This document shows, piece by piece, positions 11,214-60,702 of a stretch of DNA of 64,000 bases. Source of the stretch: an uncultured Alphaproteobacteria bacterium (GTDB lineage Bacteria; Pseudomonadota; Alphaproteobacteria; Rs-D84); the NCBI GenBank assembly GCA_946613195.1, contig CAMOFE010000001.1, positions 8,151 through 72,150 of the forward strand, written 5' to 3'. The position numbers and the translations under genes were made by a program. A model generated the notes under the pieces. The model worked only from the letters and a program-made list of their open reading frames with translations, did no database searches and was not told where the DNA came from. Positions within the stretch are counted from its first letter, which is position 1; the number at the start of each line of letters is the position of its first letter.

Positions 11214-11504
11214 ATGAAAAAAATACTTTTATGCACGTTGGCAGTATTTACTTTGGTTGCGTGTGAACGCGCGCCAAAAAGTAATATTATATGCGGTGAT
11301 TATAATATTCAGATGAATTTTTCCGAAGATGGTTCAATGTTGCATGCCATTATAAACGGCGATGATTTGGATTTAACATTGGCACCGTCTGCATCGGGCG
11401 CACGTTATGTCGGTGTGCTGAACGATACAAATGTAACCCTGTGGTCCAAGGGGGATGATTGGACAATGTTCTTGAATGACGAAGACCCGATTGAATGTAA
11501 ATAA
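11214..11504 (+). CDS. MliC-like (C-type lysozyme inhibitor) lipoprotein
   Basis: Lipobox LVAC, ~96 aa, conserved SASGARY motif and paired Cys typical of the MliC family. Confidence 0.5.
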   Translation: MKKILLCTLAVFTLVACERAPKSNIICGDYNIQMNFSEDGSMLHAIINGDDLDLTLAPSASGARYVGVLNDTNVTLWSKGDDWTMFLNDEDPIECK

Positions 11505-28285: not shown

Positions 28286-29233
28286 ATGTTTCGTAAGATA
28301 TTGATAATAGCGATGTTTGCAACTGCGGCGGGTTATTGTTTCGCCGAAGATAATGTTCACCAAGTTGTAACGAGTGAGGTTTTTTATGACGAAGAATATC
28401 GTCGGATTGATGATAATGTGTATGAAGATATCGTTGAAGAAACCGAAGTGCCTGCGTGGCCATTAGTTGGTTCTGATGCAGACGTAGAAGTTACATGTGA
28501 TCGTGGTGCGTGCAGTAATGTGCGTACACCTGTGGTCGCGCAAACGCCTGTGCCACGACGCGCAGATAATATTCGTATTGTTTCCAAAATTGGTGATGAT
28601 ATGGTTGTTGAAAATAATATAAATATGAGCGGTGCCGGTAACCAATGGTCGGGTGGTGCAGATATGGTGCATGGTATGCAAATCCCGGCGGGGTTTGATA
28701 ACGAATGTTATAATGGCGCAGAAATGCCGTTGTTGCATCGTGAAATTCTGGAAGATGACGGTGGCAGTGTATTGGCTGTATCACGTGGACCATACAATCG
28801 TTGTGGTGGATATGTAAACGATTACGATACATATGTTGCGAAAAGTAAATTAAGCGAAACAGAAAAATTGCGTTGGTTGGCGATGGATGATGCAACAACA
28901 GAATCAACAAAATCTGTTCGCGGTGATATTGTTGTTGATGTAACAACAGATGCGGATGCGGCCCCAGAATTACCAGACCAGGTGCGGTCTTGGGTTGTTG
29001 CAAATGGACAAACATTACGCGAAGTTTTGCAAAGTTGGTGTGATAAAGATGGTTGGGATTTAGTATGGGCAACATCGCGCGAATACCCGATAGAGGCCAG
29101 TGCGGTGTTCAAGGGACGTTTCGTTGATGTTGCATCTGCGCTGGTGCGGAACTTTGGTCGTGCAACACCAATCCCATATGCAAAATTTTACAAGGGAAAT
29201 CGTGTTTTAGTCGTATCCACCACCGAGGAGTAA
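28286..29233 (+). CDS. Secreted TcpQ-domain protein (type IVb pilus secretin partner, TcpQ/PilM-like)
   Basis: Signal peptide (..AAGYCFA|ED). C-terminal ~90 aa (..WVVANGQTLREVLQSWCDKDGWDLVWATSREYPIEASAVFKGRFVDVASALV..FYKGNRVLVV) matches the TcpQ family pattern. Located immediately upstream of a lipoprotein secretin, as tcpQ is to tcpC. Confidence 0.5.
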   Translation: MFRKILIIAMFATAAGYCFAEDNVHQVVTSEVFYDEEYRRIDDNVYEDIVEETEVPAWPLVGSDADVEVTCDRGACSNVRTPVVAQTPVPRRADNIRIVSKIGDDMVVENNINMSGAGNQWSGGADMVHGMQIPAGFDNECYNGAEMPLLHREILEDDGGSVLAVSRGPYNRCGGYVNDYDTYVAKSKLSETEKLRWLAMDDATTESTKSVRGDIVVDVTTDADAAPELPDQVRSWVVANGQTLREVLQSWCDKDGWDLVWATSREYPIEASAVFKGRFVDVASALVRNFGRATPIPYAKFYKGNRVLVVSTTEE

Positions 29234-29274
29234 TAATCCATTAACAGGATGACACATTTGGGAGAGCATAGGAA

Positions 29275-30903
29275 ATGAAAAAAGTATTAAAACTTTTTGT
29301 GTTATGTTTGGCTGTCGGCACGATGGTGGCAGGTTGTGCAAAAAAAGAATCTGCCAAGGTTGCGGCCGCAGTTGATCAAAACTTTATCAATGCGTATGAC
29401 GCGTTTGAGATGGCAAAAAATCCACGCGCCAAGGTCGCCAGTGGCGATACTGTTTCTATGTCCGAAGGTGTTTGGTTGGGTAATAAATCAACCGTGTTGG
29501 AACACAAAAATAATCTGCCATCCCAGTTTGAGACGGATACAGGTGTAACAATTTTGTTAAACGAACCTGTTACACTGCAAGTGTTTGCAAATAATATAAA
29601 TTCCATTACAGGTATCCAGGTAAAAATAGACAGCCAAATTAATTCTGAAAAATTAAAAAGGACAATGAATATTGCCTACACTGGGAAACTGTCGGATTTG
29701 TTGTCCCAGGTCGCAACAGATTTAGATTTGCTGTGGTACTATGACAAAAGTTCTATTGTGTTTTACGAAACAGAAACAAAAACATTTACATTATATGCGC
29801 TGGGGACAGATGTGTCGTATCAATCATCTGTTCAGACAGATGAAGGAACGCAGGTGTCTTTGGAATCAACATTGCGCGAATGGGAAGAGGTTGAAAAGAC
29901 AATCGCATCTATTATTGGTAATACTGATAACGCGGAATTTACCGTTTCGCGCAGTTTAGGAACAATAACAGTTACCGCGCCACCGTCTGTGCAGACGCGT
30001 GTTGGTGAATATATTGCGCGTCAAAACCGCAGATTGTCGCAACTGGTAACGATTGATGTAAAAGTATTACAGGTATCAATTACTAATAATTCGGCATTTG
30101 GCCTGAATTTGGCGGCGGCGATTAACGCGGCATCAGGATTGAATATCGTTGCAAATCCCAAGAATAATTTAGCCGCGACCGAGGCCAGTTCAATGAATAT
30201 TGCTGTATTATCTAATACATTGTCGGCAATGACAGGTGCAACGCATTTGGTTAATGGTGTTGAAACAGCCGGCGCATATACATCTGATGATATAAACAAT
30301 GGTTCGTTGTCTGGTGTTGCAGGTTCCAGTGCGCTGATAGAGGCATTGGCCAAGCAGGGTAAAGTGTCTTTAGTTACAAATGTTGGTGTTACAACGCGTA
30401 ATAATCGTGTTGCCCCGGTAAATAATACGCGTACCACAGGTTATATTAAACGATTTGAATCGCGTACATTTACATCTGTGGAATCATCAACTGTGGATCA
30501 AGATAACTTGGAAACAGGTTTTGCTATGCAGTTGTTGCCAAATGTGCTGGAAAACGGGAAAATATTGTTGCTGTTCAGAATGTCTGTGCGTGAATTAATC
30601 AAAATGTCCAGCCAAACGATTGGCGAGGTTACCTTGCAATTACCCGAAGTTGAAGAACGCAGTTTTATGCAAGAAGTTATTATGGAATCAGGTCAAATGT
30701 TGGTCGTGTCCGGGTTTGAGAAGCAAACAAATAACGATACGCGTTATGGTTTGGGCGATCCTGATTTTATGGCGTTATCTGGTTCGCGTGAATCTGCTGC
30801 GCAACGCGATGTTTTGGTTGTTATATTAACACCACAAGTTTTGGTCAGTCCAATGGATGCCGAACGTAGTATTCAGCAACATTGGGGTGCACCATTAAAT
30901 TAA
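29275..30903 (+). CDS. Lipoprotein secretin of the type IVb pilus class (TcpC/BfpB/PilN-like)
   Basis: Lipobox (MVAGC). C-terminal secretin domain (..GQMLVVSGFEKQTNNDTRYGLGDPDFMALSGSRESAAQRDVLVVILTPQVL). 542 aa, the size of T4b secretins. Confidence 0.7.
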   Translation: MKKVLKLFVLCLAVGTMVAGCAKKESAKVAAAVDQNFINAYDAFEMAKNPRAKVASGDTVSMSEGVWLGNKSTVLEHKNNLPSQFETDTGVTILLNEPVTLQVFANNINSITGIQVKIDSQINSEKLKRTMNIAYTGKLSDLLSQVATDLDLLWYYDKSSIVFYETETKTFTLYALGTDVSYQSSVQTDEGTQVSLESTLREWEEVEKTIASIIGNTDNAEFTVSRSLGTITVTAPPSVQTRVGEYIARQNRRLSQLVTIDVKVLQVSITNNSAFGLNLAAAINAASGLNIVANPKNNLAATEASSMNIAVLSNTLSAMTGATHLVNGVETAGAYTSDDINNGSLSGVAGSSALIEALAKQGKVSLVTNVGVTTRNNRVAPVNNTRTTGYIKRFESRTFTSVESSTVDQDNLETGFAMQLLPNVLENGKILLLFRMSVRELIKMSSQTIGEVTLQLPEVEERSFMQEVIMESGQMLVVSGFEKQTNNDTRYGLGDPDFMALSGSRESAAQRDVLVVILTPQVLVSPMDAERSIQQHWGAPLN

Positions 30904-33026: not shown

Positions 33027-33836
33027 ATGAAAAAAACAGTTATCTTTTTAATATCTGCTTTGCTTTTAATGCCGGCATTTGCGGCGCCTGGGGATTCTGC
33101 ACGGCGCAGTATGTCTGATCAAATGGTTGCCGCACCACGTGCAACGGCATCGGTGGGTCAGTTAAATGCGACATCGGCGGCCAAAAAGTCCAGTATCAAG
33201 GTTGAAACAGATATGATTGCGGCACCGGTTGCAGATGAACAAAATCGCCGTGATAAAGAAAAAGAAGCGTGCCAGGGTAATAATATCGGTATTGGAAATA
33301 CTTTTGTTTGGGCGTCGCGTTACAGTAATTCATCCAGTTATGCATCTATGGTAGAAGATGTCAACAACCCTGAAAATAACGTTTGTTTTGTCAAGGTTGA
33401 TATGAAATCCAGCGATTCGCGTATAAATTTATCTGATATCCCCAGTAAATATTTTGTTATGGGTAATACAATTAATTGTGGTTCTTGGGTTGACGAAGAC
33501 GCATTACAAAAACGTATCTTGGATGCCAAGAAAACAGGACGCGCGTTGGCAACCGTTGGCGGTGTTGTTGGTGGTGCGGGCTTGGGCGTTGGCGCAATGG
33601 AATTGTTTGGTAACAAATTAATTGGTGGCAAGGTTATGGGTCAAAAAGATGAAAAACTGACAGAAACCGAAGTGTTTGTATCCCAGATGTTGGTTCTGAA
33701 ACAAGAAAATCGCGCAGAATATGATAAAATAATTAAAGAGTTGGAAAGCATACAATCGGAATGCAAGAATAATAACATTAAAGAATGTGCTGAATTGGAT
33801 TATGCCGCTTTGCTGAAAACACAGGATAACCAATAA
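33027..33836 (+). CDS. Secreted hypothetical protein with Gly-zipper segment
   Basis: Signal peptide (..LLMPAFA). 269 aa. Gly-zipper GGVVGGAGLGVGAMELFG near the C-terminal third, then a charged helical tail with 2 Cys. Confidence 0.5.
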   Translation: MKKTVIFLISALLLMPAFAAPGDSARRSMSDQMVAAPRATASVGQLNATSAAKKSSIKVETDMIAAPVADEQNRRDKEKEACQGNNIGIGNTFVWASRYSNSSSYASMVEDVNNPENNVCFVKVDMKSSDSRINLSDIPSKYFVMGNTINCGSWVDEDALQKRILDAKKTGRALATVGGVVGGAGLGVGAMELFGNKLIGGKVMGQKDEKLTETEVFVSQMLVLKQENRAEYDKIIKELESIQSECKNNNIKECAELDYAALLKTQDNQ

Positions 33837-36651: not shown

Positions 36652-37701
36652 ATGCGTGAATGTAATGCGATGGGGGAAATTCCAATGTTATTAAAACGTT
36701 TTGCAATATTTACAATTCTGGCGGGTGTGTTTGCAACATATGCTGCCACCGCCGCGGTTGACCCAAGAACAGAGTGTGTAAGAGAGGGTTGGTATACTAC
36801 TTATTATTATAATACTTCTGAAATAATTCAGGCAGATTATGCCATTTATTTTGATAATAATGTATCAACTATACCTGAAGATTGTAAAACAGAAGTGCAA
36901 AGTGTAATTAATGAATTGAAAAAGAAAAACAACGATATTGAAACAATATTATTGTTTGGTTCGGCAGATGCAACAGCGGGTGCAAATAGGGATGCAGAAT
37001 TAGGTATGAAACGTGCAAATACTGTTGCTAATTTATTAAAATATGCTGGTTTGGATTTTTGTTATTCTGAAAAATGTGATAATAGAACAGCAAAAGTATC
37101 CATGGGTGACGCAATGAATCGGGCGCAAGGATATATGGATTCTGATTTTTTTGCACGTGCTGTTTATATGTTCGTGATTTACAAGGGTGATGTTTGCAAT
37201 AAATCTACTATGGGCAGTATAGATGGTTTGTTAAGTCGCGTTAATAAACTATTAACAGAAAAACCAAATGATACGACATTAACAAAGGTAAAATCACAGT
37301 TAGAAACGGCAAAACAAACTTGTGGCGAAGTGAATAAAGTATTATTCCGTTCAGAACGTGAAAGTATTATGACGGCAATCAAATATGCAATTGATAATTT
37401 CCCTGAATTAAAATCTGTGGTAACTGTTGATGTCAGTTTATCTGCGCGAATAATGGCAATCAGGGCACGGTTGTCGGGAATGAAACGTTCTGCATGGAAA
37501 ACGACAGACGGTAAATTTAACACTGCGCGTCTGGCATCGGATTCAGTTGCGGGTGTTGTGCTGGGAACCGCCGGCGGTTTAATCACCAGTCATCTGGTTA
37601 AAAAGAGCCAATTAAAGAAAGGTATGGAAGATATTAAATGTGCAATCGGTGGACAAGAGGTTGCATCATACGGTGATGACTTTACTGTTGGGGTACGCTA
37701 A
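36652..37701 (+). CDS. Secreted protein with OmpA/MotB-like peptidoglycan-binding domain in its N-terminal half
   Basis: Signal peptide. ..ILLFGSADATAGANRDAELGMKRANTVANLL..FFARAVYMFVI resembles the OmpA_C-like core (G.TD..G....N..LS..RA..V...L, NRRVE.). The C-terminal 170 aa are unknown. Confidence 0.5.
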   Translation: MRECNAMGEIPMLLKRFAIFTILAGVFATYAATAAVDPRTECVREGWYTTYYYNTSEIIQADYAIYFDNNVSTIPEDCKTEVQSVINELKKKNNDIETILLFGSADATAGANRDAELGMKRANTVANLLKYAGLDFCYSEKCDNRTAKVSMGDAMNRAQGYMDSDFFARAVYMFVIYKGDVCNKSTMGSIDGLLSRVNKLLTEKPNDTTLTKVKSQLETAKQTCGEVNKVLFRSERESIMTAIKYAIDNFPELKSVVTVDVSLSARIMAIRARLSGMKRSAWKTTDGKFNTARLASDSVAGVVLGTAGGLITSHLVKKSQLKKGMEDIKCAIGGQEVASYGDDFTVGVR

Positions 37702-37728
37702 AAAAATCCGGCAACGCCGGATTTTTTA
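37702..37728 (+). terminator. Rho-independent terminator
   Basis: AAAAAATCCGGCAACGCCGGATTTTTTAT. Confidence 0.65.
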
Positions 37729-37734
37729 TTAAAA

Positions 37735-37792: not shown

Positions 37793-39715
37793 TTGAACAG
37801 TGTCTTGTTTTATGATAAAATTGCATTCAGAGAGAATATGAAATCAATTACGCGTTTTTTTGCGTTTGTTTTATGCGCGGTGCCACTGTGCGCGGCGGCT
37901 GCGCCTGTTGCAACCACCGCCGGCAGTAATTTAACCGCATATAATCCAACCACAGGTGCAACAAATAATAATATGTGGAATACACTGATGAATGGACGCG
38001 GTGCGGCGGGCGGAAATAACGCGGCACCGGCAGATTTTGGAAACTGTAATGCACTGATAATTCGTTGCGCATCACCAAAGTGTGCTAATGGTGGATGCAC
38101 AGATATGGATGTCGCATCATCTATTGTGCGCGGATGTGTTAATTCCAATGAAAATTGTAAAAAATATGGCGATGATTTGGTTGAATACATATCTGCACAG
38201 TTGGTCGCATCTTCTAATGCAAAAATAAATGCTGCCAATGTTGCGGCGCAAAATGCCACTGCTGCGGCTGTGGCACAACAAAATGCCCAGCAAATGGCAG
38301 AAATGCAACAACAGATGCAACAGATGCAGGCAGAAATGGCGCAACAAAATGCGGCAACTGTTCAGGCAATGCAGGCGGCACTGGATGAACAGAAACAATT
38401 AACCGCAGATGCAATCGCAAATGCAAACGCAACACAACAAAGTGCGCCGTCTTATACTGCGCCGGTGCCAACAAATTCAGAATATGATAATGGGTTAACC
38501 AACGCCCAGATTATTGCGGCGCAAAATGGTGTGTCTGCGGATGTTTTGGCGCGTGAACAAATTGTTGGTGAAATAATGTCAAAACTGGAAAATGCAGAAA
38601 CCGCATTAAAGACATTAAAGACCACAATGCAAGATGCATTTGATTATGCGGGTTGTGATTCATTTGGTAATAATTGCAGTGGGCCAAAACGCGTGTCTGC
38701 GTTCAAGTCGCGTGCGATAAAATTCTTTGATCCATATAATACGGTGTTGGACGAATTATATGATGCGTTAATCACTGCCCAGGCCGCCGGTGTTGATATA
38801 ACAGATATCTATATGATGCTGGAAGGGTCATGTAATGTCTGGGGACAATATTTGTGTTCACAGACAGAACTTGGTGCGTATGCCGATGGGAGTAGTTTGC
38901 CAAAAAGTTGTGATAAGAATACTGGTAAAAGTATAAAATCTGGCAGTACCAAAGGGGGGCGTGATTGTGTAATTGGGCAACCAATTCCCCCCGAAGACAG
39001 TCCATTGTGCACACTGCAAAAAACATACGCCGATGGCGAAAGTGTGCGTCGCGCATGGTTGTACCCCGAAGAAGGTGATGATGAAACCCAGGGTGGTGCA
39101 ATACGCGTTGGGTGTGCGTCGTCTGCGCTGGATAATTCTAAATTCTTTCGCAGTCGCAAAAAACAGGCACAAATTGATATTGAAATACTGGAACGTATAA
39201 TTGAACAAGATGCATCTGCGTCCAGTGGTTTTACCATGTTTGGTGCGCGCCGGGACGATGGCGCACGTCGTGAACAAACATACGGTGCATGTGCGATTGG
39301 CGAAACAATGTATGCAGATTTGCAGAAAATAACCGCAACAAAAAAATTGCCAGACAAAATATGTATGAAACAACGCGATGCGATTGAAAAAGTCCGCAAT
39401 GATGCCCCATTGGCACTTGCAACAGGTGGCATGTCCAAGACAATCTTGAAATATCACGAACAATGTGAAAAAGAAGATAGAGAGAGTGTTACGGATTATT
39501 GGGAATGTTTGTGTCCAAAAATAGGTAATGGTTACACAAAATCTAGTGAAGGTGAATATTGTTCTTGCGGAACGGATTCTAATAAATATTGGGGCAAGGA
39601 TAATTATTACGAATGTTTGACCGATGACCAAATATGCACACGTAAACAGTTTTGTACAGGTACACAAAAATCACAATGGAATCAGACTGAAAAAACATGT
39701 GGTGATTGCAAATAA
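37793..39715 (+). CDS. Large secreted Cys-rich protein with Ala/Gln-rich coiled-coil segment, unknown function
   Basis: Signal peptide at the internal MKSITRFFAFVLCAVPLCAAAAP. ~30 Cys in CxxC/CxnC patterns in the N- and C-terminal regions. Central region QQNAQQMAEMQQQMQQMQAEMAQQNAATVQAMQAAL. 640 aa. Confidence 0.5.
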   Translation: MNSVLFYDKIAFRENMKSITRFFAFVLCAVPLCAAAAPVATTAGSNLTAYNPTTGATNNNMWNTLMNGRGAAGGNNAAPADFGNCNALIIRCASPKCANGGCTDMDVASSIVRGCVNSNENCKKYGDDLVEYISAQLVASSNAKINAANVAAQNATAAAVAQQNAQQMAEMQQQMQQMQAEMAQQNAATVQAMQAALDEQKQLTADAIANANATQQSAPSYTAPVPTNSEYDNGLTNAQIIAAQNGVSADVLAREQIVGEIMSKLENAETALKTLKTTMQDAFDYAGCDSFGNNCSGPKRVSAFKSRAIKFFDPYNTVLDELYDALITAQAAGVDITDIYMMLEGSCNVWGQYLCSQTELGAYADGSSLPKSCDKNTGKSIKSGSTKGGRDCVIGQPIPPEDSPLCTLQKTYADGESVRRAWLYPEEGDDETQGGAIRVGCASSALDNSKFFRSRKKQAQIDIEILERIIEQDASASSGFTMFGARRDDGARREQTYGACAIGETMYADLQKITATKKLPDKICMKQRDAIEKVRNDAPLALATGGMSKTILKYHEQCEKEDRESVTDYWECLCPKIGNGYTKSSEGEYCSCGTDSNKYWGKDNYYECLTDDQICTRKQFCTGTQKSQWNQTEKTCGDCK

Positions 39716-40437
39716 TGAATAATAGACAGAATATCTTTTATAGGTTTTTATATGGCGCGGTGGCGTGTGTGTTTGCGTGCGTTGTTTCGTCTGGCGCGTT
39801 TGCCGCGGGTGATGGCGGGTGCGATAATGAAGAAAATGATTACATAAATCCTGAACTGGCGCTGTGTTCGGTGCATGCATATAATATGGGACTGGATGAA
39901 AACCCCAGCAGTGATATGCGCCCGGTTATGCGTGGAGTGGTGGGACTGAAAACCACGGTTATCACGCAACAGATGAAAAAACAGTATGATTATATGGACG
40001 CGATGATTCGTCGTTTTCGTGTACAATTACAAAAGGCGACATTACAAACAAAATTACAGGCTGCCGGTGCTGCTGCATCTGATTCATCGGGTGGTTCTGA
40101 ACGATTCGTTTCCAACGACCGTAATATATTTATCGCCGGCGTTAATAATTGTAACAATGAAATAACATCATTAAAAAAATATGAATGTTTATATAATAAT
40201 CTGAATACTATTACTAATTCGTCGGCAAACGGGTCAAATGTTACAGTTGAGTTAAAGAAACAATTGGCAAATGATTATAGCCTTACCAAAGGCAGCAAGT
40301 CTGAATGCAGGAAATACACAGATATAAAAACTAGAAAAATATTTCAGACTTGTTTAGATGATTTAAGGGACGTAGTTCGCACAGAGTATGAAAAAGAACA
40401 ACGCGAAGATATGAAAGCTCGAAATAGCAGATATTAA
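39706..40437 (+). CDS. Secreted hypothetical protein, co-transcribed with the preceding gene
   Basis: 10-nt overlap with the upstream gene. Signal peptide (..SSGAFAAGDGGC). 243 aa with a helical, charged C-terminus. Confidence 0.45.
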   Translation: MQIMNNRQNIFYRFLYGAVACVFACVVSSGAFAAGDGGCDNEENDYINPELALCSVHAYNMGLDENPSSDMRPVMRGVVGLKTTVITQQMKKQYDYMDAMIRRFRVQLQKATLQTKLQAAGAAASDSSGGSERFVSNDRNIFIAGVNNCNNEITSLKKYECLYNNLNTITNSSANGSNVTVELKKQLANDYSLTKGSKSECRKYTDIKTRKIFQTCLDDLRDVVRTEYEKEQREDMKARNSRY

Positions 40438-44018: not shown

Positions 44019-44759
44019 TTGTTTTTTGCATTATGCACTATGCCCGTTGCCATTTGCATTAGTCCAGTCAATGCAGAAGAATACTGTGTTCCGACAAATT
44101 ATACAATAACATATCAATTGGGCGGTGGTTGTAATGGTACCGCGCCATCATCTGTAACGGTTGCCCGTGGTGCGAATTTTACGACACCAAATGCCGCAAC
44201 GGCGTGTGGCGACAATACCGTTACAAAATGGAAAATAGACGGCACAAATGATTACATAACATCAAACACAACATTGCCATACGTGTGGACGAATGATATA
44301 ACATTGGTTGCAGGCGCCACCGTTGTCAGCCTATCTGCGCCGTATTCTGTAAATACCAGCATACACGGTTATCAGAACGACAGTCGTAGTGCATACGGTG
44401 CAGAGTCATTCAATTGCACCGGATGCAACGATAATGAATGGCATGCGGACTTCAGTTATGGCACGGTAACTGGCATTGCCAGTTGTAACAGCACCCCTGG
44501 CGATAATCAGGATATGAAATGGACAAATCCGACAACAGCCAGTTCAGACAGTATGAGCAGCAGCAGTACCGGTCAATATTGCTGGTGTAAAATGACAGGC
44601 TTTGCCGGGCAGTCATTGTCGGTTGCGCCGTGGGGGTTCTTCTACGACTACGACAGTGCGGACAGTTGCGCGGCCGGCTGTGCGTCCCACGTTGCCGCTC
44701 ATCCCGGATTCCGCGGGGCGGTGTATAACGCATCGGGCGTGATTAATTCCGAAGAATAA
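44019..44759 (+). CDS. Secreted Cys-rich hypothetical protein
   Basis: Probable signal peptide (..ICISPVNA|EEYC). 246 aa with ~14 Cys and Thr/Asn-rich beta-like segments. Start is uncertain (TTG/ATG). Confidence 0.45.
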   Translation: MFFALCTMPVAICISPVNAEEYCVPTNYTITYQLGGGCNGTAPSSVTVARGANFTTPNAATACGDNTVTKWKIDGTNDYITSNTTLPYVWTNDITLVAGATVVSLSAPYSVNTSIHGYQNDSRSAYGAESFNCTGCNDNEWHADFSYGTVTGIASCNSTPGDNQDMKWTNPTTASSDSMSSSSTGQYCWCKMTGFAGQSLSVAPWGFFYDYDSADSCAAGCASHVAAHPGFRGAVYNASGVINSEE

Positions 44760-52832: not shown

Positions 52833-53306
52833 GTGTGTGCAATGAAACAAGAATCTGGACGCTCTATGATTGAAATGATGGGCGTGTTGGCAATTATGGG
52901 GGTTATCACGGTTGGGGCGACATTGTTGATATCAACAGCAATGCGCACACAAAAACGCAGCCAAGTTAACGATGAAATTATTCAACTGGTTGTCGGTGTG
53001 CGCCAATTATTGGGCGAATATGACGATTATTCGCATATTAACAACAGCACTATATTTGGTGCGATTGGTATGTCGGATAAAAACCCATATGGCGGAACGT
53101 ATGAAATTTCTGTAAATCCGTCAAATACGCGCCAGTTCGTGATTTCTATCAATGGTTTGCCAAAATCTGATTGCGAATATTTAATCACACGCGCATGGTC
53201 TGATTCTGTGGGATATACTGTGTCTGGCGGACGTGAAGGCGGTGCAACCGGCAATTGTGGTGATACAGACGCACGAAATTCTGTTCAGATAATATATGGT
53301 GAATAA
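52833..53306 (+). CDS. Type IV pilin (class III signal peptide; prepilin)
   Basis: ..KQESG|RSMIEMMGVLAIMGVITVGATLLI. Gly at -1, Glu at +5, ~20-residue hydrophobic helix, and a C-terminal Cys pair (SDCEYL...GNCGD) for the D-region disulfide. 157 aa. Confidence 0.65.
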   Translation: MCAMKQESGRSMIEMMGVLAIMGVITVGATLLISTAMRTQKRSQVNDEIIQLVVGVRQLLGEYDDYSHINNSTIFGAIGMSDKNPYGGTYEISVNPSNTRQFVISINGLPKSDCEYLITRAWSDSVGYTVSGGREGGATGNCGDTDARNSVQIIYGE

Positions 53307-59652: not shown

Positions 59653-60702
59653 TTAACAACCAACAACCTTATCATTGCTGGCCATAATATTTTTTATCTC
59701 GTCCATGCAGTTTTCGGTTATGTTTTGCATCGCCAACCCCATCCAATCGCGCGGATTAAAGTTTTCAGGGTGTGCGGTCAAAAATTCACGCACACCCGCG
59801 GTGAACGCCAGACGTGAATCACTGTCCACATTTATTTTGCAGATGTTCATTTGTGTGGCGCGCCTTAGTTGTGCGGTGTCAATTCCGCGGGCATCACCCA
59901 GTTTCCCACCGTGCGCATTTATTGATTTAACCAAGTGTGCTGGCACAGATGATGCACCATGCAGCACCAGTGGAAATTTTGGTAATTTTTTTGCTATTTT
60001 TTCCAAGATATCAAATCGTAACGATTCATCATCGGATTTTCGCTTATATGCGCCATGACTGGTGCCGATGGCGATTGCCAATGAATCAACATTTGTGTCT
60101 TTTACAAATTTCACAACATCGTCTGGGTTTGTGTATTGTGAATATTCTGATTTTGTGTTTTCGTCTTCTATGCCAGACAGTGTGCCCAGTTCTGCCTCTA
60201 CACAAACATCGTATTTATGTGCGTATTCGGCAACGCGTCGCGACAGTTTTGTATTTTCATCATATGGCATTGCAGATGCATCAATCATAACAGATGAAAA
60301 GCCCAAGTCTATCGCGTGCTGGCATAAATCATACGAATGACCATGATCCAGGTGCAGTGCCACACATTCTGAATCTGATAATTTTAATCCGCCAATCATT
60401 GACATCAGCATATCGTCCCCCATATATTTTAGCGCACTTTCTGATACCGCCAATATAACAGGACTGTGTGTTTTGCGTGCCGCCGCCATAATCGCGGTCA
60501 GTGTTTCCATATTATAAAAATTAAATGCCGGTACTGCATAATTGCGCGTAATTGCATCACTGAACATATCACGGGTGTTAACCAGACCGAATTTGGAATA
60601 TTTTCTCATTTGTGTTCCTTTGTTTTTGTTTATTATATCACAGTGCAAGGGGCTGTGTAAGTGGTTAGTTAGTCCTTGACAACAGGCTGATTTGTGCAAC
60701 AA
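59653..60702 (-). CDS. fba: Class II fructose-bisphosphate aldolase
   Basis: ..AVPAFNFYNMETLTAIM..PVIL.., HLDHG zinc-binding motif and ..HGASS... The likely start is the internal MRKYSK. Confidence 0.9.
   Translation of the reverse strand: MLHKSACCQGLTNHLHSPLHCDIINKNKGTQMRKYSKFGLVNTRDMFSDAITRNYAVPAFNFYNMETLTAIMAAARKTHSPVILAVSESALKYMGDDMLMSMIGGLKLSDSECVALHLDHGHSYDLCQHAIDLGFSSVMIDASAMPYDENTKLSRRVAEYAHKYDVCVEAELGTLSGIEDENTKSEYSQYTNPDDVVKFVKDTNVDSLAIAIGTSHGAYKRKSDDESLRFDILEKIAKKLPKFPLVLHGASSVPAHLVKSINAHGGKLGDARGIDTAQLRRATQMNICKINVDSDSRLAFTAGVREFLTAHPENFNPRDWMGLAMQNITENCMDEIKNIMASNDKVVGC

What the first reader, a model, noticed from the sequence alone, without database searches (positions are those of the whole stretch)
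37793..39715. 640-aa secreted protein: Cys-rich terminal domains flanking an Ala/Gln-rich coiled coil
About 30 cysteines sit in regular spacings (CxxxC, CPKC, CxCG...) in both terminal regions, typical of extracellular disulfide-rich or EGF/Kazal-like folds and unusual for bacterial cytoplasm. The central QQNAQQMAEMQQQMQQMQAEMAQQNAA.. segment is a polar coiled coil. The architecture resembles eukaryote-facing adhesins or effectors rather than any standard bacterial envelope protein.
Basis: seen in the sequence. Interest (0 to 1): 0.65.

Follow-up and report, generated by a model that had tools for sequence, protein, structure and literature searches.

The report
Disulfide-rich exported protein with swappable tip
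This is a real, intact gene for an exported, cysteine-rich protein that belongs to an uncharacterised family found only in tiny-genome gut Alphaproteobacteria (Candidatus Enterousia and relatives); it always works with the next gene, and its small cysteine-knot end is exchanged between strains like a cassette, which points to a surface recognition or immune-evasion structure.

Summary
The gene is real. It most likely starts at ATG 37838, giving 625 aa rather than 640. It has a Sec-type signal peptide and 26 cysteines in the mature chain. Ten of these lie in the central domain, not only at the termini.

It belongs to a closed orphan family: 180 hits among 1.84 billion representative proteins, from at least 211 species genomes. 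These are mostly gut or rumen Alphaproteobacteria, many labelled Candidatus Enterousia. No match was found in Pfam, NCBIfam, PDB sequences or PDB/BFVD folds.

Sixteen core cysteines are invariant. The mature cysteine count is even in 119 of 120 homologs, which is a signature of disulfide bonding.

The gene overlaps the downstream 240-aa exported-protein gene (TAATG). The two are adjacent in 80 of 82 loci and naturally fused in several lineages, so they form one unit.

The last ~115 residues are a hypervariable cysteine-knot cassette. Strains 97% identical in flanking DNA carry unalignable tails, and identical tails sit on diverged cores.

Best reading (about 0.45): a disulfide-stapled, two-part surface stalk with an exchangeable recognition or antigenic tip. 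EGF/Kazal homology and a eukaryote-facing role are not demonstrated.

The parts
37702..37730 (+). Intrinsic terminator of the upstream OmpA-like gene (AAAAAATCCGGC-AACG-GCCGGATTTTTT). It separates that gene from the operon.
   Evidence: Read directly from the sequence. The OmpA-like gene is not a conserved neighbour: a full match only in L001, which is the window's own contig, plus a C-terminal-tail match in L039.
37793..37821 (+). Promoter-like element TTGAAC-17 nt-TAAAAT with TG extension.
   Evidence: This is a consensus match only, not proof of function.
37830..37835 (+). Ribosome-binding-site-like GAGAGA, 2 nt upstream of ATG 37838.
   Evidence: Sequence.
37838..39715 (+). Coding sequence of the 625-aa Cys-rich exported protein (stop codon 39713-39715).
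   Evidence: P0001 is an identical 625-aa protein called in public assemblies.
37838..37900 (+). Sec-type signal peptide (aa 1-21, MKSITRFFAFVLCAVPLCAAA). It is not a lipobox.
   Evidence: Sequence and family consensus MKxxxRFLLxALCLxPxxAxxAPV. The cleavage site is inferred.
37901..38035 (+). Conserved but predicted-disordered N-terminal segment (aa 22-66). The motif GSNLTAYN...NNNxWNxLMNxR has invariant G29, N31, L32, G40, N44, W47, N48, N52 and R54.
   Evidence: pLDDT below 50 over residues 16-66. The motif is recognisable even in the most divergent fused homologs. A docking or export-signal role is inferred.
38036..38212 (+). Six-Cys helical domain (aa 67-125): C70-x6-C77-x4-C82-x4-C87-x12-C100-x6-C107, all invariant.
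   Evidence: (pLDDT 80-88, helices 68-82 and 90-103).
38213..38431 (+). Ala/Gln/Met-rich long helix (aa 126-198). It is conserved in sequence, not merely in composition.
   Evidence: column conservation 0.71-0.79. Heptad periodicity is weak. This segment is the source of all weak TFIIA, portal, ZorA and T7 gp14 hits.
38432..38500 (+). Variable, low-confidence linker (aa 199-221).
   Evidence: conservation 0.38; insertions after residue 210.
38501..39370 (+). Conserved helical plus alpha/beta core (aa 222-511). It has 10 invariant Cys (273, 280, 332, 340, 358, 377, 391, 426, 485, 509) and near-invariant blocks (VLDELYDALIxAQxxGVDITDIYMML; RVGCAS...FRNRKKQ). A variable loop lies at aa 344-375.
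39371..39712 (+). Hypervariable C-terminal cysteine-knot tail (aa 512-625, 10 Cys, CxC...C modules). It is the cassette that is exchanged between strains and is absent in most fused forms.
39713..39717 (+). TAATG stop/start overlap, which couples translation of the two genes.
   Evidence: The same 1-nt overlap is seen in L001, L002 and L088.
39715..40437 (+). Partner gene, encoding a 240-aa exported protein. It has a signal peptide, an invariant C36-x14-C51 loop (NPELALCSxHxYN), a conserved 53-residue Q/M-rich helix, a Gly/Ser linker and a variable C-terminal helical domain with 4 Cys.
   Evidence: pLDDT above 90 for residues 140-240. It is fused to the target in several lineages.

Best explanation
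The gene and its downstream neighbour encode the two halves of one exported, disulfide-stabilised, elongated envelope or surface structure. It is specific to the reduced-genome gut Alphaproteobacteria around Candidatus Enterousia.

**Proposed working.**
1. Both proteins cross the inner membrane by Sec and are oxidised. All cysteines pair within the chain.
2. The conserved N-terminal parts form the invariant base and stalk. These are the short linear motif, the six-Cys helical cap, the long A/Q/M-rich helix of the large protein and the similarly Q/M-rich helix of the small one.
3. The variable C-terminal parts form the exposed distal end. These are the large protein's Cys-knot tail and the small protein's C-terminal helical domain.
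4. The tail is a recognition or antigenic module that strains exchange by recombination. This changes what the cell binds (partner cell, host surface or mucus), or what antibodies and phages can recognise.

**Shown:** export signal, disulfide signature, two-gene unit and fusions, cassette exchange, orphan status.

**Inferred:** surface location, the route across the outer membrane, pairing of the two helices, and the binding function.
For: - **Real, intact, coupled genes.**
- **Family range.** More than 1,340 homologous protein clusters were found. At least 211 species-representative genomes carry it, mostly gut or rumen Alphaproteobacteria and many labelled Candidatus Enterousia. That lineage has genomes under 1 Mb and is predicted to depend on a partner (PMC12306168).
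- **One unit.**
  - The partner gene is adjacent in 80/82 loci.
  - Natural fusions join target residues 1-511 to partner residues 36/42-end, without the second signal peptide.
  - All five of the most divergent members I read are fused.
- **Disulfides.** All 16 core Cys are invariant in 42/42 sequences. The mature Cys count is even in 119/120 homologs while ranging from 16 to 38.
- **Exposed, diversifying tip.**
  - Pairs with cores at least 95% identical have tails averaging 64% identity, with a minimum of 20%.
  - Two strain pairs are 97-98% identical in DNA up to codon ~505-517, have no detectable similarity across the tail, and are again 93-99% identical in the partner gene.
  - Identical tails occur on cores only 75-80% identical.
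  - The Cys framework is kept: 214 CxC...C modules against 28.6 +/- 5 in shuffles.
- **Retained under genome reduction.** The gene is present in a 716-kb chromosome (L069).
Against: - Nothing shows how a soluble Sec substrate would cross the outer membrane. There is no autotransporter, beta-barrel or lipobox. The type IVb-pilus-like secretin in the window is 7 kb away and unlinked in other genomes.
- No Dsb-type oxidase was seen in the window or in about 1 Mb of related loci. The lineage is anaerobic and lacks respiratory chains, so the source of oxidising power is unknown.
- The AlphaFold model is mediocre (pLDDT 60.8, pTM 0.27). I could not inspect coordinates to confirm Cys-Cys proximity.
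- Most fused forms lack the tail, so the tail is not essential to the core function.
- No binding partner, expression or localisation data exist.
Confidence: 0.45

Rival explanations
1. It is a periplasmic structural scaffold. The two proteins stay in the periplasm and form a disulfide-cross-linked helical spacer or tether between the outer membrane and peptidoglycan. This would be functionally like Braun's lipoprotein or TolA, or like the chlamydial cysteine-rich envelope proteins OmcB/OmcA. It would compensate for envelope components lost during genome reduction.
For: - The default destination of a Sec/SPase I substrate without outer-membrane targeting features is the periplasm (established knowledge).
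- The core is strongly and uniformly conserved and the gene is retained in the smallest genomes.
- Long helices are predicted.
- The operon sits next to lpxD-fabZ or skp in about 12 related loci and in L083/L084.
- Other Cys-rich exported proteins are encoded nearby in many genomes. This suggests a lineage-wide Cys-rich envelope.
Against: - Sharply delimited cassette replacement of the tail between near-identical strains, and tail sharing between diverged cores, is hard to explain for a shielded periplasmic protein.
- There is no peptidoglycan-binding or lipid anchor.
- The even Cys parity argues for pairing within the chain rather than a cross-linked network between chains.
- Peptidoglycan synthesis genes are intact in the window (PBPs), so no replacement for the wall is needed.
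Confidence: 0.25
2. It is a polymorphic secreted toxin or effector. A conserved delivery region carries an exchangeable C-terminal toxic or effector module, and the downstream gene product is its immunity protein or chaperone.
For: The layout resembles CDI/Rhs-type polymorphic toxins: a conserved N-terminal region, a sharply delimited hypervariable C-terminus and a small downstream gene.
Against: - The downstream gene does not change when the tail changes. It stays 98.7% and 93.5% identical in DNA across two tail swaps, and covariation is weak (partial r 0.2).
- The downstream protein is conserved, with invariant motifs.
- It is naturally fused to the core, usually replacing the tail.
- The tails are 45-220 aa of small Cys-knot modules without any toxin-domain hit.
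- No orphan or silent cassettes lie nearby.
Confidence: 0.07
3. It is a metal- or cofactor-binding or redox protein. The conserved cysteines coordinate metals or Fe-S clusters, or act in thiol-disulfide exchange, rather than forming structural disulfides. This would fit an anaerobe without an obvious Dsb system.
For: - No Dsb-like protein was found in the sampled DNA.
- The habitat is anaerobic and reducing.
- Some homologs shorten C82-x4-C87 to a CxxC.
Against: - There are no conserved CxxC or CxxCH motifs and essentially no histidine (1 in 640 residues).
- Spacings are C-x6-C and C-x4-C on predicted helices and CxC in beta hairpins.
- Strict even parity across counts of 16-38, including Cys added in pairs in variable loops and tails, is what disulfide pairing predicts. 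Metal sites would not give it.
Confidence: 0.05

Closest known systems
TraN, the mating-pair-stabilisation adhesin of F-type conjugation systems (Pfam PF06986). Its properties are recalled from established knowledge.
   Same: It is an exported protein of about 600 aa with about 20 conserved cysteines. A conserved disulfide-rich scaffold carries a variable 'tip' that sets partner specificity.
   Different: - No sequence similarity was found: no Pfam hit at E up to 1 for the window protein, or up to 0.1 for 42 family members.
- TraN's variable region is internal, whereas here it is a C-terminal cassette.
- There are no conjugation genes around the operon.
- The target has a long A/Q/M helix and an obligatory second subunit.
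Chlamydial cysteine-rich envelope proteins OmcB (60 kDa) and OmcA, encoded by a two-gene operon. Properties are recalled from established knowledge.
   Same: A large and a small Cys-rich exported protein are encoded in one operon, in an obligately host- or partner-dependent bacterium with a reduced genome. Both proteins have a Sec signal and about 4-5% Cys.
   Different: - There is no homology: no Pfam hit of any kind reaches threshold.
- The target is mainly alpha-helical.
- The even Cys parity points to disulfides within the chain rather than a cross-linked network.
- Peptidoglycan synthesis is intact here.
- OmcB has no cassette-type variable tail.
Type IV pilins and other antigenically variable surface proteins, with a conserved N-terminal assembly region and a disulfide-bounded hypervariable C-terminal region.
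   Same: A conserved N-terminal part is joined to a C-terminal, disulfide-framed hypervariable module that is reshuffled by recombination between strains.
   Different: - There is no prepilin leader and no pilin fold.
- The protein is about four times larger.
- No silent cassettes were found in the 64-kb window or within +/-6 kb of the related loci.
- The exchange appears to be between strains.
EGF-like domains (Pfam EGF clan; PROSITE EGF_2 pattern, quoted from memory).
   Same: The tail modules have CxC-x(6-16)-C spacing and predicted short beta hairpins. Eleven of 113 tails match C-x-C-x2-[GP]-[FYW]-x(4,8)-C, against 0.1 expected.
   Different: - No Pfam EGF model passes its threshold. The best is cEGF at 19 bits against a cut-off of 26.6, in one homolog.
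- The window's own tail gives no hit.
- The full six-Cys EGF framework is not present.
Helicobacter cysteine-rich proteins (Hcp, Sel1-like repeats). Properties are recalled from established knowledge.
   Same: They are secreted alpha-helical proteins whose helix pairs are stapled by regularly spaced disulfides.
   Different: There is no Sel1 (PF08238) hit. The target has no tandem repeat architecture, and it has an additional alpha/beta core and a tail.

Membership tests
   - The window protein gives no hit at E up to 1.
- Among 42 family members, one cEGF hit at E=0.011.
- Among 10 isolated tails, one cEGF hit at 19 bits against a cut-off of 26.6, and the window's own tail gives nothing.
- No Kazal hit anywhere.
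   The pattern occurs in 11/113 tails, against 0.1 expected from shuffles. It is absent from the window's tail and from about 90% of tails. This is a resemblance in half of the framework only.
F-type TraN (PF06986) | Sequence match to the TraN model. | tested here: not met
   No hit.
F-type TraN (PF06986) | Location within a tra/trb conjugation gene cluster. | tested here: not met
   The neighbours are dnaA, an OmpA-like gene and a gyrB/parE-type gene here. In 82 related loci they are housekeeping genes.
Chlamydial OmcB/OmcA cysteine-rich envelope proteins | Sequence match to the chlamydial Cys-rich OMP models. | tested here: not met
   No Pfam hit of any kind above threshold.
Chlamydial OmcB/OmcA cysteine-rich envelope proteins | Disulfide cross-linking between chains into an envelope network. 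| not testable with these tools
   The even Cys parity (119/120) favours pairing within the chain. Only biochemistry can decide.
Polymorphic toxin with cognate immunity gene (CDI/Rhs-like logic) | The downstream gene co-varies with the variable C-terminal module. | tested here: not met
   The downstream gene stays 98.7% and 93.5% identical in DNA across two tail replacements. Partial r is 0.2.
Polymorphic toxin with cognate immunity gene (CDI/Rhs-like logic) | The C-terminal module matches a known toxin domain. | tested here: not met
   No toxin family matched among 10 tails at E up to 10.
Disulfide-bonded exported proteins (general class) | An N-terminal export signal. | tested here: met
   An n-region, h-region and AxA-type N-terminus is conserved across the family. 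This is read by eye; no predictor was available.
Disulfide-bonded exported proteins (general class) | A bias to even cysteine numbers in the mature chain (the genomic criterion of Dutton et al. 2008, from memory). | tested here: met
   - 119/120 clustered homologs have even counts; the odd one is annotated partial.
- 75/81 ORFs from species genomes have even counts.
- Counts range from 16 to 38.
Disulfide-bonded exported proteins (general class) | Presence of a disulfide-forming system (DsbA/DsbB or VKOR) in the genome. | tested here: inconclusive
   No thioredoxin-type CxxC exported protein was found in the 64-kb window or in 82 loci (about 1 Mb from many genomes). No whole genome could be scanned.
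Coiled-coil proteins | Heptad (3.5-residue) hydrophobic periodicity over the long helix. | tested here: inconclusive
   The helix is predicted over residues 107-198. Spectral peaks are weak and lie at 3.65-3.75 or 4.35, not 3.5. Residues 286-316 do show a 3.55 period.

The most novel reading that the evidence does not exclude
The two proteins may form a previously undescribed, lineage-specific attachment organelle of an obligate epibiotic or parasitic gut alphaproteobacterium. It would be a disulfide-stapled stalk whose exchangeable Cys-knot tip selects the partner cell or host surface from which the bacterium draws metabolites. The conserved disordered N-terminal motif would be a new export or docking signal that takes the stalk through the outer membrane, possibly via the type IVb-pilus-like secretin.
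Probability: 0.15. Interest if true: 0.8.

Novelty: new variant of a known kind. Interest (0 to 1): 0.5.

Why it matters
Candidatus Enterousia and its relatives (GTDB order Rs-D84) are widespread in human, livestock, bird and termite guts. Their genomes are under 1 Mb, they lack most biosynthesis and standard transporters, and they are thought to live off other cells. Nothing is known about how they attach to or recognise a partner (PMC12306168).

- A single-copy gene pair kept in every sampled lineage, even in a 716-kb chromosome, is one of the few concrete molecular handles on that lifestyle. Its invariant disulfide scaffold and strain-exchanged tip add to that.
- The tail cassette is a ready-made strain marker and a candidate determinant of host or partner range, or a target of host IgA.
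- The conserved core is a candidate antigen for visualising or enriching these uncultured cells.
- The family also adds an apparently new disulfide-rich fold to bacterial envelope biology.
- It raises the question of how an anaerobe without respiratory quinones oxidises 13 or more disulfides per chain.

Tried and rejected
- **Combined alignment for a fusion protein.** I tried to model a natural fusion (A2). MAFFT laid the short partner proteins over the N-terminus of the large one, so it was abandoned. The second structure job went to the partner protein alone.
- **Target versus partner protein.** hhalign gave probability 1.7%, so the two are not paralogs.
- **Target versus the ~1,040-aa neighbour family.** This family of Cys-rich exported proteins has a similar-looking six-Cys spacing and a 'TAY' motif near the N-terminus. 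hhalign gave E=0.19 and probability 0.3%. The motif recurs in only a few other proteins. It is treated as unproven.
- **Weak database hits.** TFIIA, T7 gp14, a PHROG portal family, a PHROG tail-fibre family and PADLOC ZorA all map to the A/Q-rich helix and are below thresholds. I rejected them as compositional.
- **Dsb-like proteins.** A CxxC motif search in the window and loci found nothing convincing. This is inconclusive.
- **Silent tail cassettes.** None in the window or around 88 loci.
- **Paralogs of the target in the window.** None.
- **Upstream OmpA-like gene as part of the system.** Rejected. It has its own terminator and is absent upstream in the related loci; L039 alone shares only its C-terminal tail.
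- **Lipoprotein anchoring.** Rejected for both proteins. The Cys in the signal region is not conserved, and the partner's first Cys is retained inside the fusions.
- **Literature.** Searches for Enterousia and Rs-D84 found no description of this family.
Full report
**1. What is in the sequence**

An uninterrupted ORF runs from 37793 to 39715 on the + strand. The upstream OmpA-like gene ends with a textbook hairpin-plus-T-run terminator at 37702-37730. An ATG at 37838 is preceded by GAGAGA, and public gene calls use this ATG (P0001, identical 625 aa). I therefore treat the protein as 625 aa.

Its N-terminus (MKSITR, hydrophobic stretch, AAA|AP) reads as a Sec/SPase I signal. The Cys residues inside it are not conserved, so it is not a lipobox. 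The mature chain has 26 Cys in 604 residues, against a background of 1.1% in the window (binomial P about 9e-9).

The cysteines are not only terminal. Six lie in an N-terminal helical domain, ten in the central domain and ten in the C-terminal tail. The real spacings are C-x6-C, C-x4-C, CxC and one terminal CxxC.

**2. The family**

The word-indexed search found more than 1,340 homologous clusters, about 50-59% identical, all unnamed or 'hypothetical'. An exhaustive HMMER profile scan covered 1.84 billion 50%-identity representatives. It found only 180 proteins at E up to 1e-3, of which 147 were at E up to 1e-30. This is a closed family without distant relatives.

In GTDB species representatives, 211 genomes carry it. 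The 80 best are mostly gut or rumen MAGs labelled Alphaproteobacteria, Candidatus Enterousia or 'uncultured Rickettsiales'. A few obvious mislabels, some termite samples and two Zodletone (Zod_Metabat) MAGs are also present. Candidatus Enterousia belongs to GTDB order Rs-D84. That lineage has genomes mostly under 1 Mb, no respiration, little biosynthesis and a presumed partner-dependent lifestyle (PMC12306168; NCBI lineage).

No match was found in any of the following:
- Pfam, for the single protein and for all 42 aligned members;
- NCBIfam;
- PDB sequences searched with a profile;
- PHROGs and PADLOC, beyond compositional matches to the A/Q-rich helix;
- Foldseek against PDB or BFVD.

**3. 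Anatomy**

| Residues | Feature |
|---|---|
| 1-21 | Signal peptide |
| 22-66 | Predicted disordered, yet with nine invariant residues (GSNLTAYN...NNNxWNxLMNxR). The motif is recognisable even in the most divergent homologs. |
| 67-125 | Helical domain with six invariant Cys (C70-x6-C77-x4-C82-x4-C87-x12-C100-x6-C107) |
| 126-198 | A/Q/M-rich part of one long predicted helix. It is conserved in sequence, not only in composition, and its heptad periodicity is weak. |
| 199-221 | Variable linker |
| 222-511 | Conserved helical plus alpha/beta core with ten invariant Cys. Column conservation reaches 0.90 in VLDELYDALIxAQxxGVDITDIYMML, and a variable loop lies at 344-375. |
| 512-625 | Tail of small CxC...C modules in which only the Cys framework is kept |

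**4. Disulfides**

All 16 core Cys are invariant in 42/42 sequences. Across homologs the mature Cys count ranges from 16 to 38. It is even in 119/120 clustered homologs, and the one odd case is annotated as partial. It is even in 75/81 ORFs from species genomes.

Extra cysteines in tails and loops therefore always arrive in pairs. This is the signature expected if every Cys is disulfide-bonded within the chain. The partner protein mostly has 6 or 8.

I also found no Dsb-like oxidase in the window or in about 1 Mb of related loci. That gap remains open.

**5. The downstream gene is part of the same unit**

- Its ATG overlaps the stop codon (TAATG).
- A homolog follows the target in 80/82 loci, and the two exceptions are contig ends.
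- The other neighbours vary and are mostly housekeeping genes.
- In several species, and in P0040, P0105 and P0110, the two are one ORF. Target residues 1-511 run directly into partner residues 36/42-end, without the partner's signal peptide and usually without the tail.
- The five most divergent members I read are all fused.
- The two proteins are not homologous to each other (hhalign probability 1.7%).

The partner has an invariant C-x14-C loop and a conserved 53-residue Q/M-rich helix. It also has a Gly/Ser linker and a confidently modelled but variable C-terminal helical domain with four Cys. That domain has no PDB fold match. That the two Q/M-rich helices pair with each other is my inference.

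**6. The tail is an exchanged cassette**

Among clustered homologs, 67 pairs have cores at least 95% identical (mean 97.3%). Their tails average only 64% identity, with a minimum of 20%.

At the DNA level two strain pairs show the pattern directly:
- L087 and L088 are 97.7% identical over 2,473 bp, up to codon ~517. They have no BLASTN similarity across the tail. They are 98.7% identical again from 17 nt before the stop codon into the partner gene.
- L089 and L090 are 96.9% identical to codon ~505, have no match across the tail, and are then 93.5% identical.

The converse also occurs: identical or nearly identical tails sit on cores only 75-80% identical. The Cys framework is maintained throughout, with 214 CxC...C modules against 28.6 +/- 5 in shuffles. 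No silent cassettes were found nearby.

This is mosaic, recombination-driven diversification of a structurally constrained module. Such behaviour is typical of exposed recognition or antigenic tips. The partner gene does not change with the tail, which rules out a toxin-immunity pairing.

**7. Interpretation**

The best-supported reading is an exported, disulfide-stapled, two-part stalk, either split or fused. Its base is conserved and its distal end is variable and strain-exchangeable. It probably sits on or beyond the outer membrane and mediates recognition of a partner or host surface, or antigenic variation (confidence about 0.45).

The weak point is export across the outer membrane, for which no known signal is present. 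The window does encode a TcpQ protein plus a lipoprotein secretin and a pilin-like protein, but these are unlinked to the operon.

The rivals are:
- a purely periplasmic scaffold (0.25), which fits the default localisation and the conservation but not the cassette behaviour;
- a polymorphic toxin (0.07), largely refuted;
- a metal- or redox-binding protein (0.05), disfavoured by the parity, the absence of His and the absence of conserved CxxC motifs.

**8. Comparison with known systems**

In how it might work, the closest analogues are:
- TraN of F-type conjugation, a Cys-rich scaffold with a specificity-determining variable tip;
- chlamydial OmcB/OmcA, a large plus small Cys-rich envelope-protein operon in an obligate parasite;
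- pilin-type conserved-N/variable-C surface proteins.

Membership in each was tested by profile search and context, and it fails (see the membership table).

**9. Verdict**

This is a real, intact and conserved gene. It is not an artefact and not a member of any described family. The general strategy, a disulfide-rich exported protein with a variable tip, is known. This implementation, its split/fused two-gene form and its restriction to an enigmatic reduced-genome gut lineage are new. Interest is moderate (0.5). It would be high if surface localisation and partner binding were shown.

Noticed in passing
window 36652-37701 (+): The upstream gene encodes an unusual OmpA-like protein. It has a signal peptide, an OmpA-type peptidoglycan-binding domain (Pfam E=2.6e-9), a helical region, a Gly-rich transmembrane-like segment and a C-terminal tail 'IKCAIGGQEVASYGDDF'. 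The same tail ends a 670-aa protein in L039. It also resembles the end of a ~1,040-aa Cys-rich exported family that often sits just upstream of the operon in related genomes. This may be a shared C-terminal anchor module.
   Followed up: partly
L060:934-4056 and 33 other loci; window 33027-33836 (+): A second lineage-specific family of large (~1,040 aa) Cys-rich exported proteins has repeated C-x6-C-x6-C-x6-C-x13-C-x6-C modules. It is the immediate upstream neighbour of the operon in about 30 of the 34 loci that carry it. The window's 269-aa secreted protein matches its 690-900 region (E about 1e-10). A third Cys-rich exported family (~450 aa) often lies just downstream. The lineage seems to encode a whole set of disulfide-rich envelope proteins.
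   Followed up: partly
window 44019-44759 (+): Another small Cys-rich ORF (246 aa, 12 Cys, 4.9%) has a signal-like N-terminus and no Pfam match.
   Followed up: no
window 28286-30903 (+) and 52833-53306 (+): A TcpQ-like protein and a lipoprotein-type secretin (type IVb-pilus-like) are encoded here. A separate ORF has a prepilin-like N-terminus (GRSMIEMMGVLAIMGVI). This is a possible outer-membrane export route, although PMC12306168 reports type IV pili only for the other lineage it studied.
   Followed up: partly
window 59653-60702 (-): A class-II fructose-bisphosphate aldolase domain is present (Pfam E=4.5e-92). The published metabolic reconstruction of Rs-D84 states that these genomes lack fructose-bisphosphate aldolase. 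Either this genome is an exception, or the enzyme is a related aldolase such as tagatose-bisphosphate aldolase.
   Followed up: no
window 11214-11504 (+): An MliC-type inhibitor of c-type (animal) lysozyme sits next to the mraY-ftsW-murG cell-wall genes, and the same arrangement is seen in L002. This is a hint that the cell envelope meets host lysozyme.
   Followed up: no
P0156, P0160, P0172; L089:5128-6803: A few members of the partner-protein family carry extra carboxypeptidase-regulatory-like domains (PF13620/PF13715). A 1,059-aa protein with the same domains lies next to the operon in L089.
   Followed up: no
L055, L061, L066, L069, L031, L042, L041, L050, L032, L083, L084: In about a dozen related genomes the operon lies directly beside lpxD-fabZ, and beside skp in L083. 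These belong to the outer-membrane biogenesis cluster. The association is not universal.
   Followed up: partly
family alignment A1, residues 344-375 of the 625-aa protein: A second variable site lies inside the conserved core. It is a loop that accepts insertions of up to about 30 residues. In some homologs (for example P0105 and P0109) the insertions bring additional cysteines.
   Followed up: no
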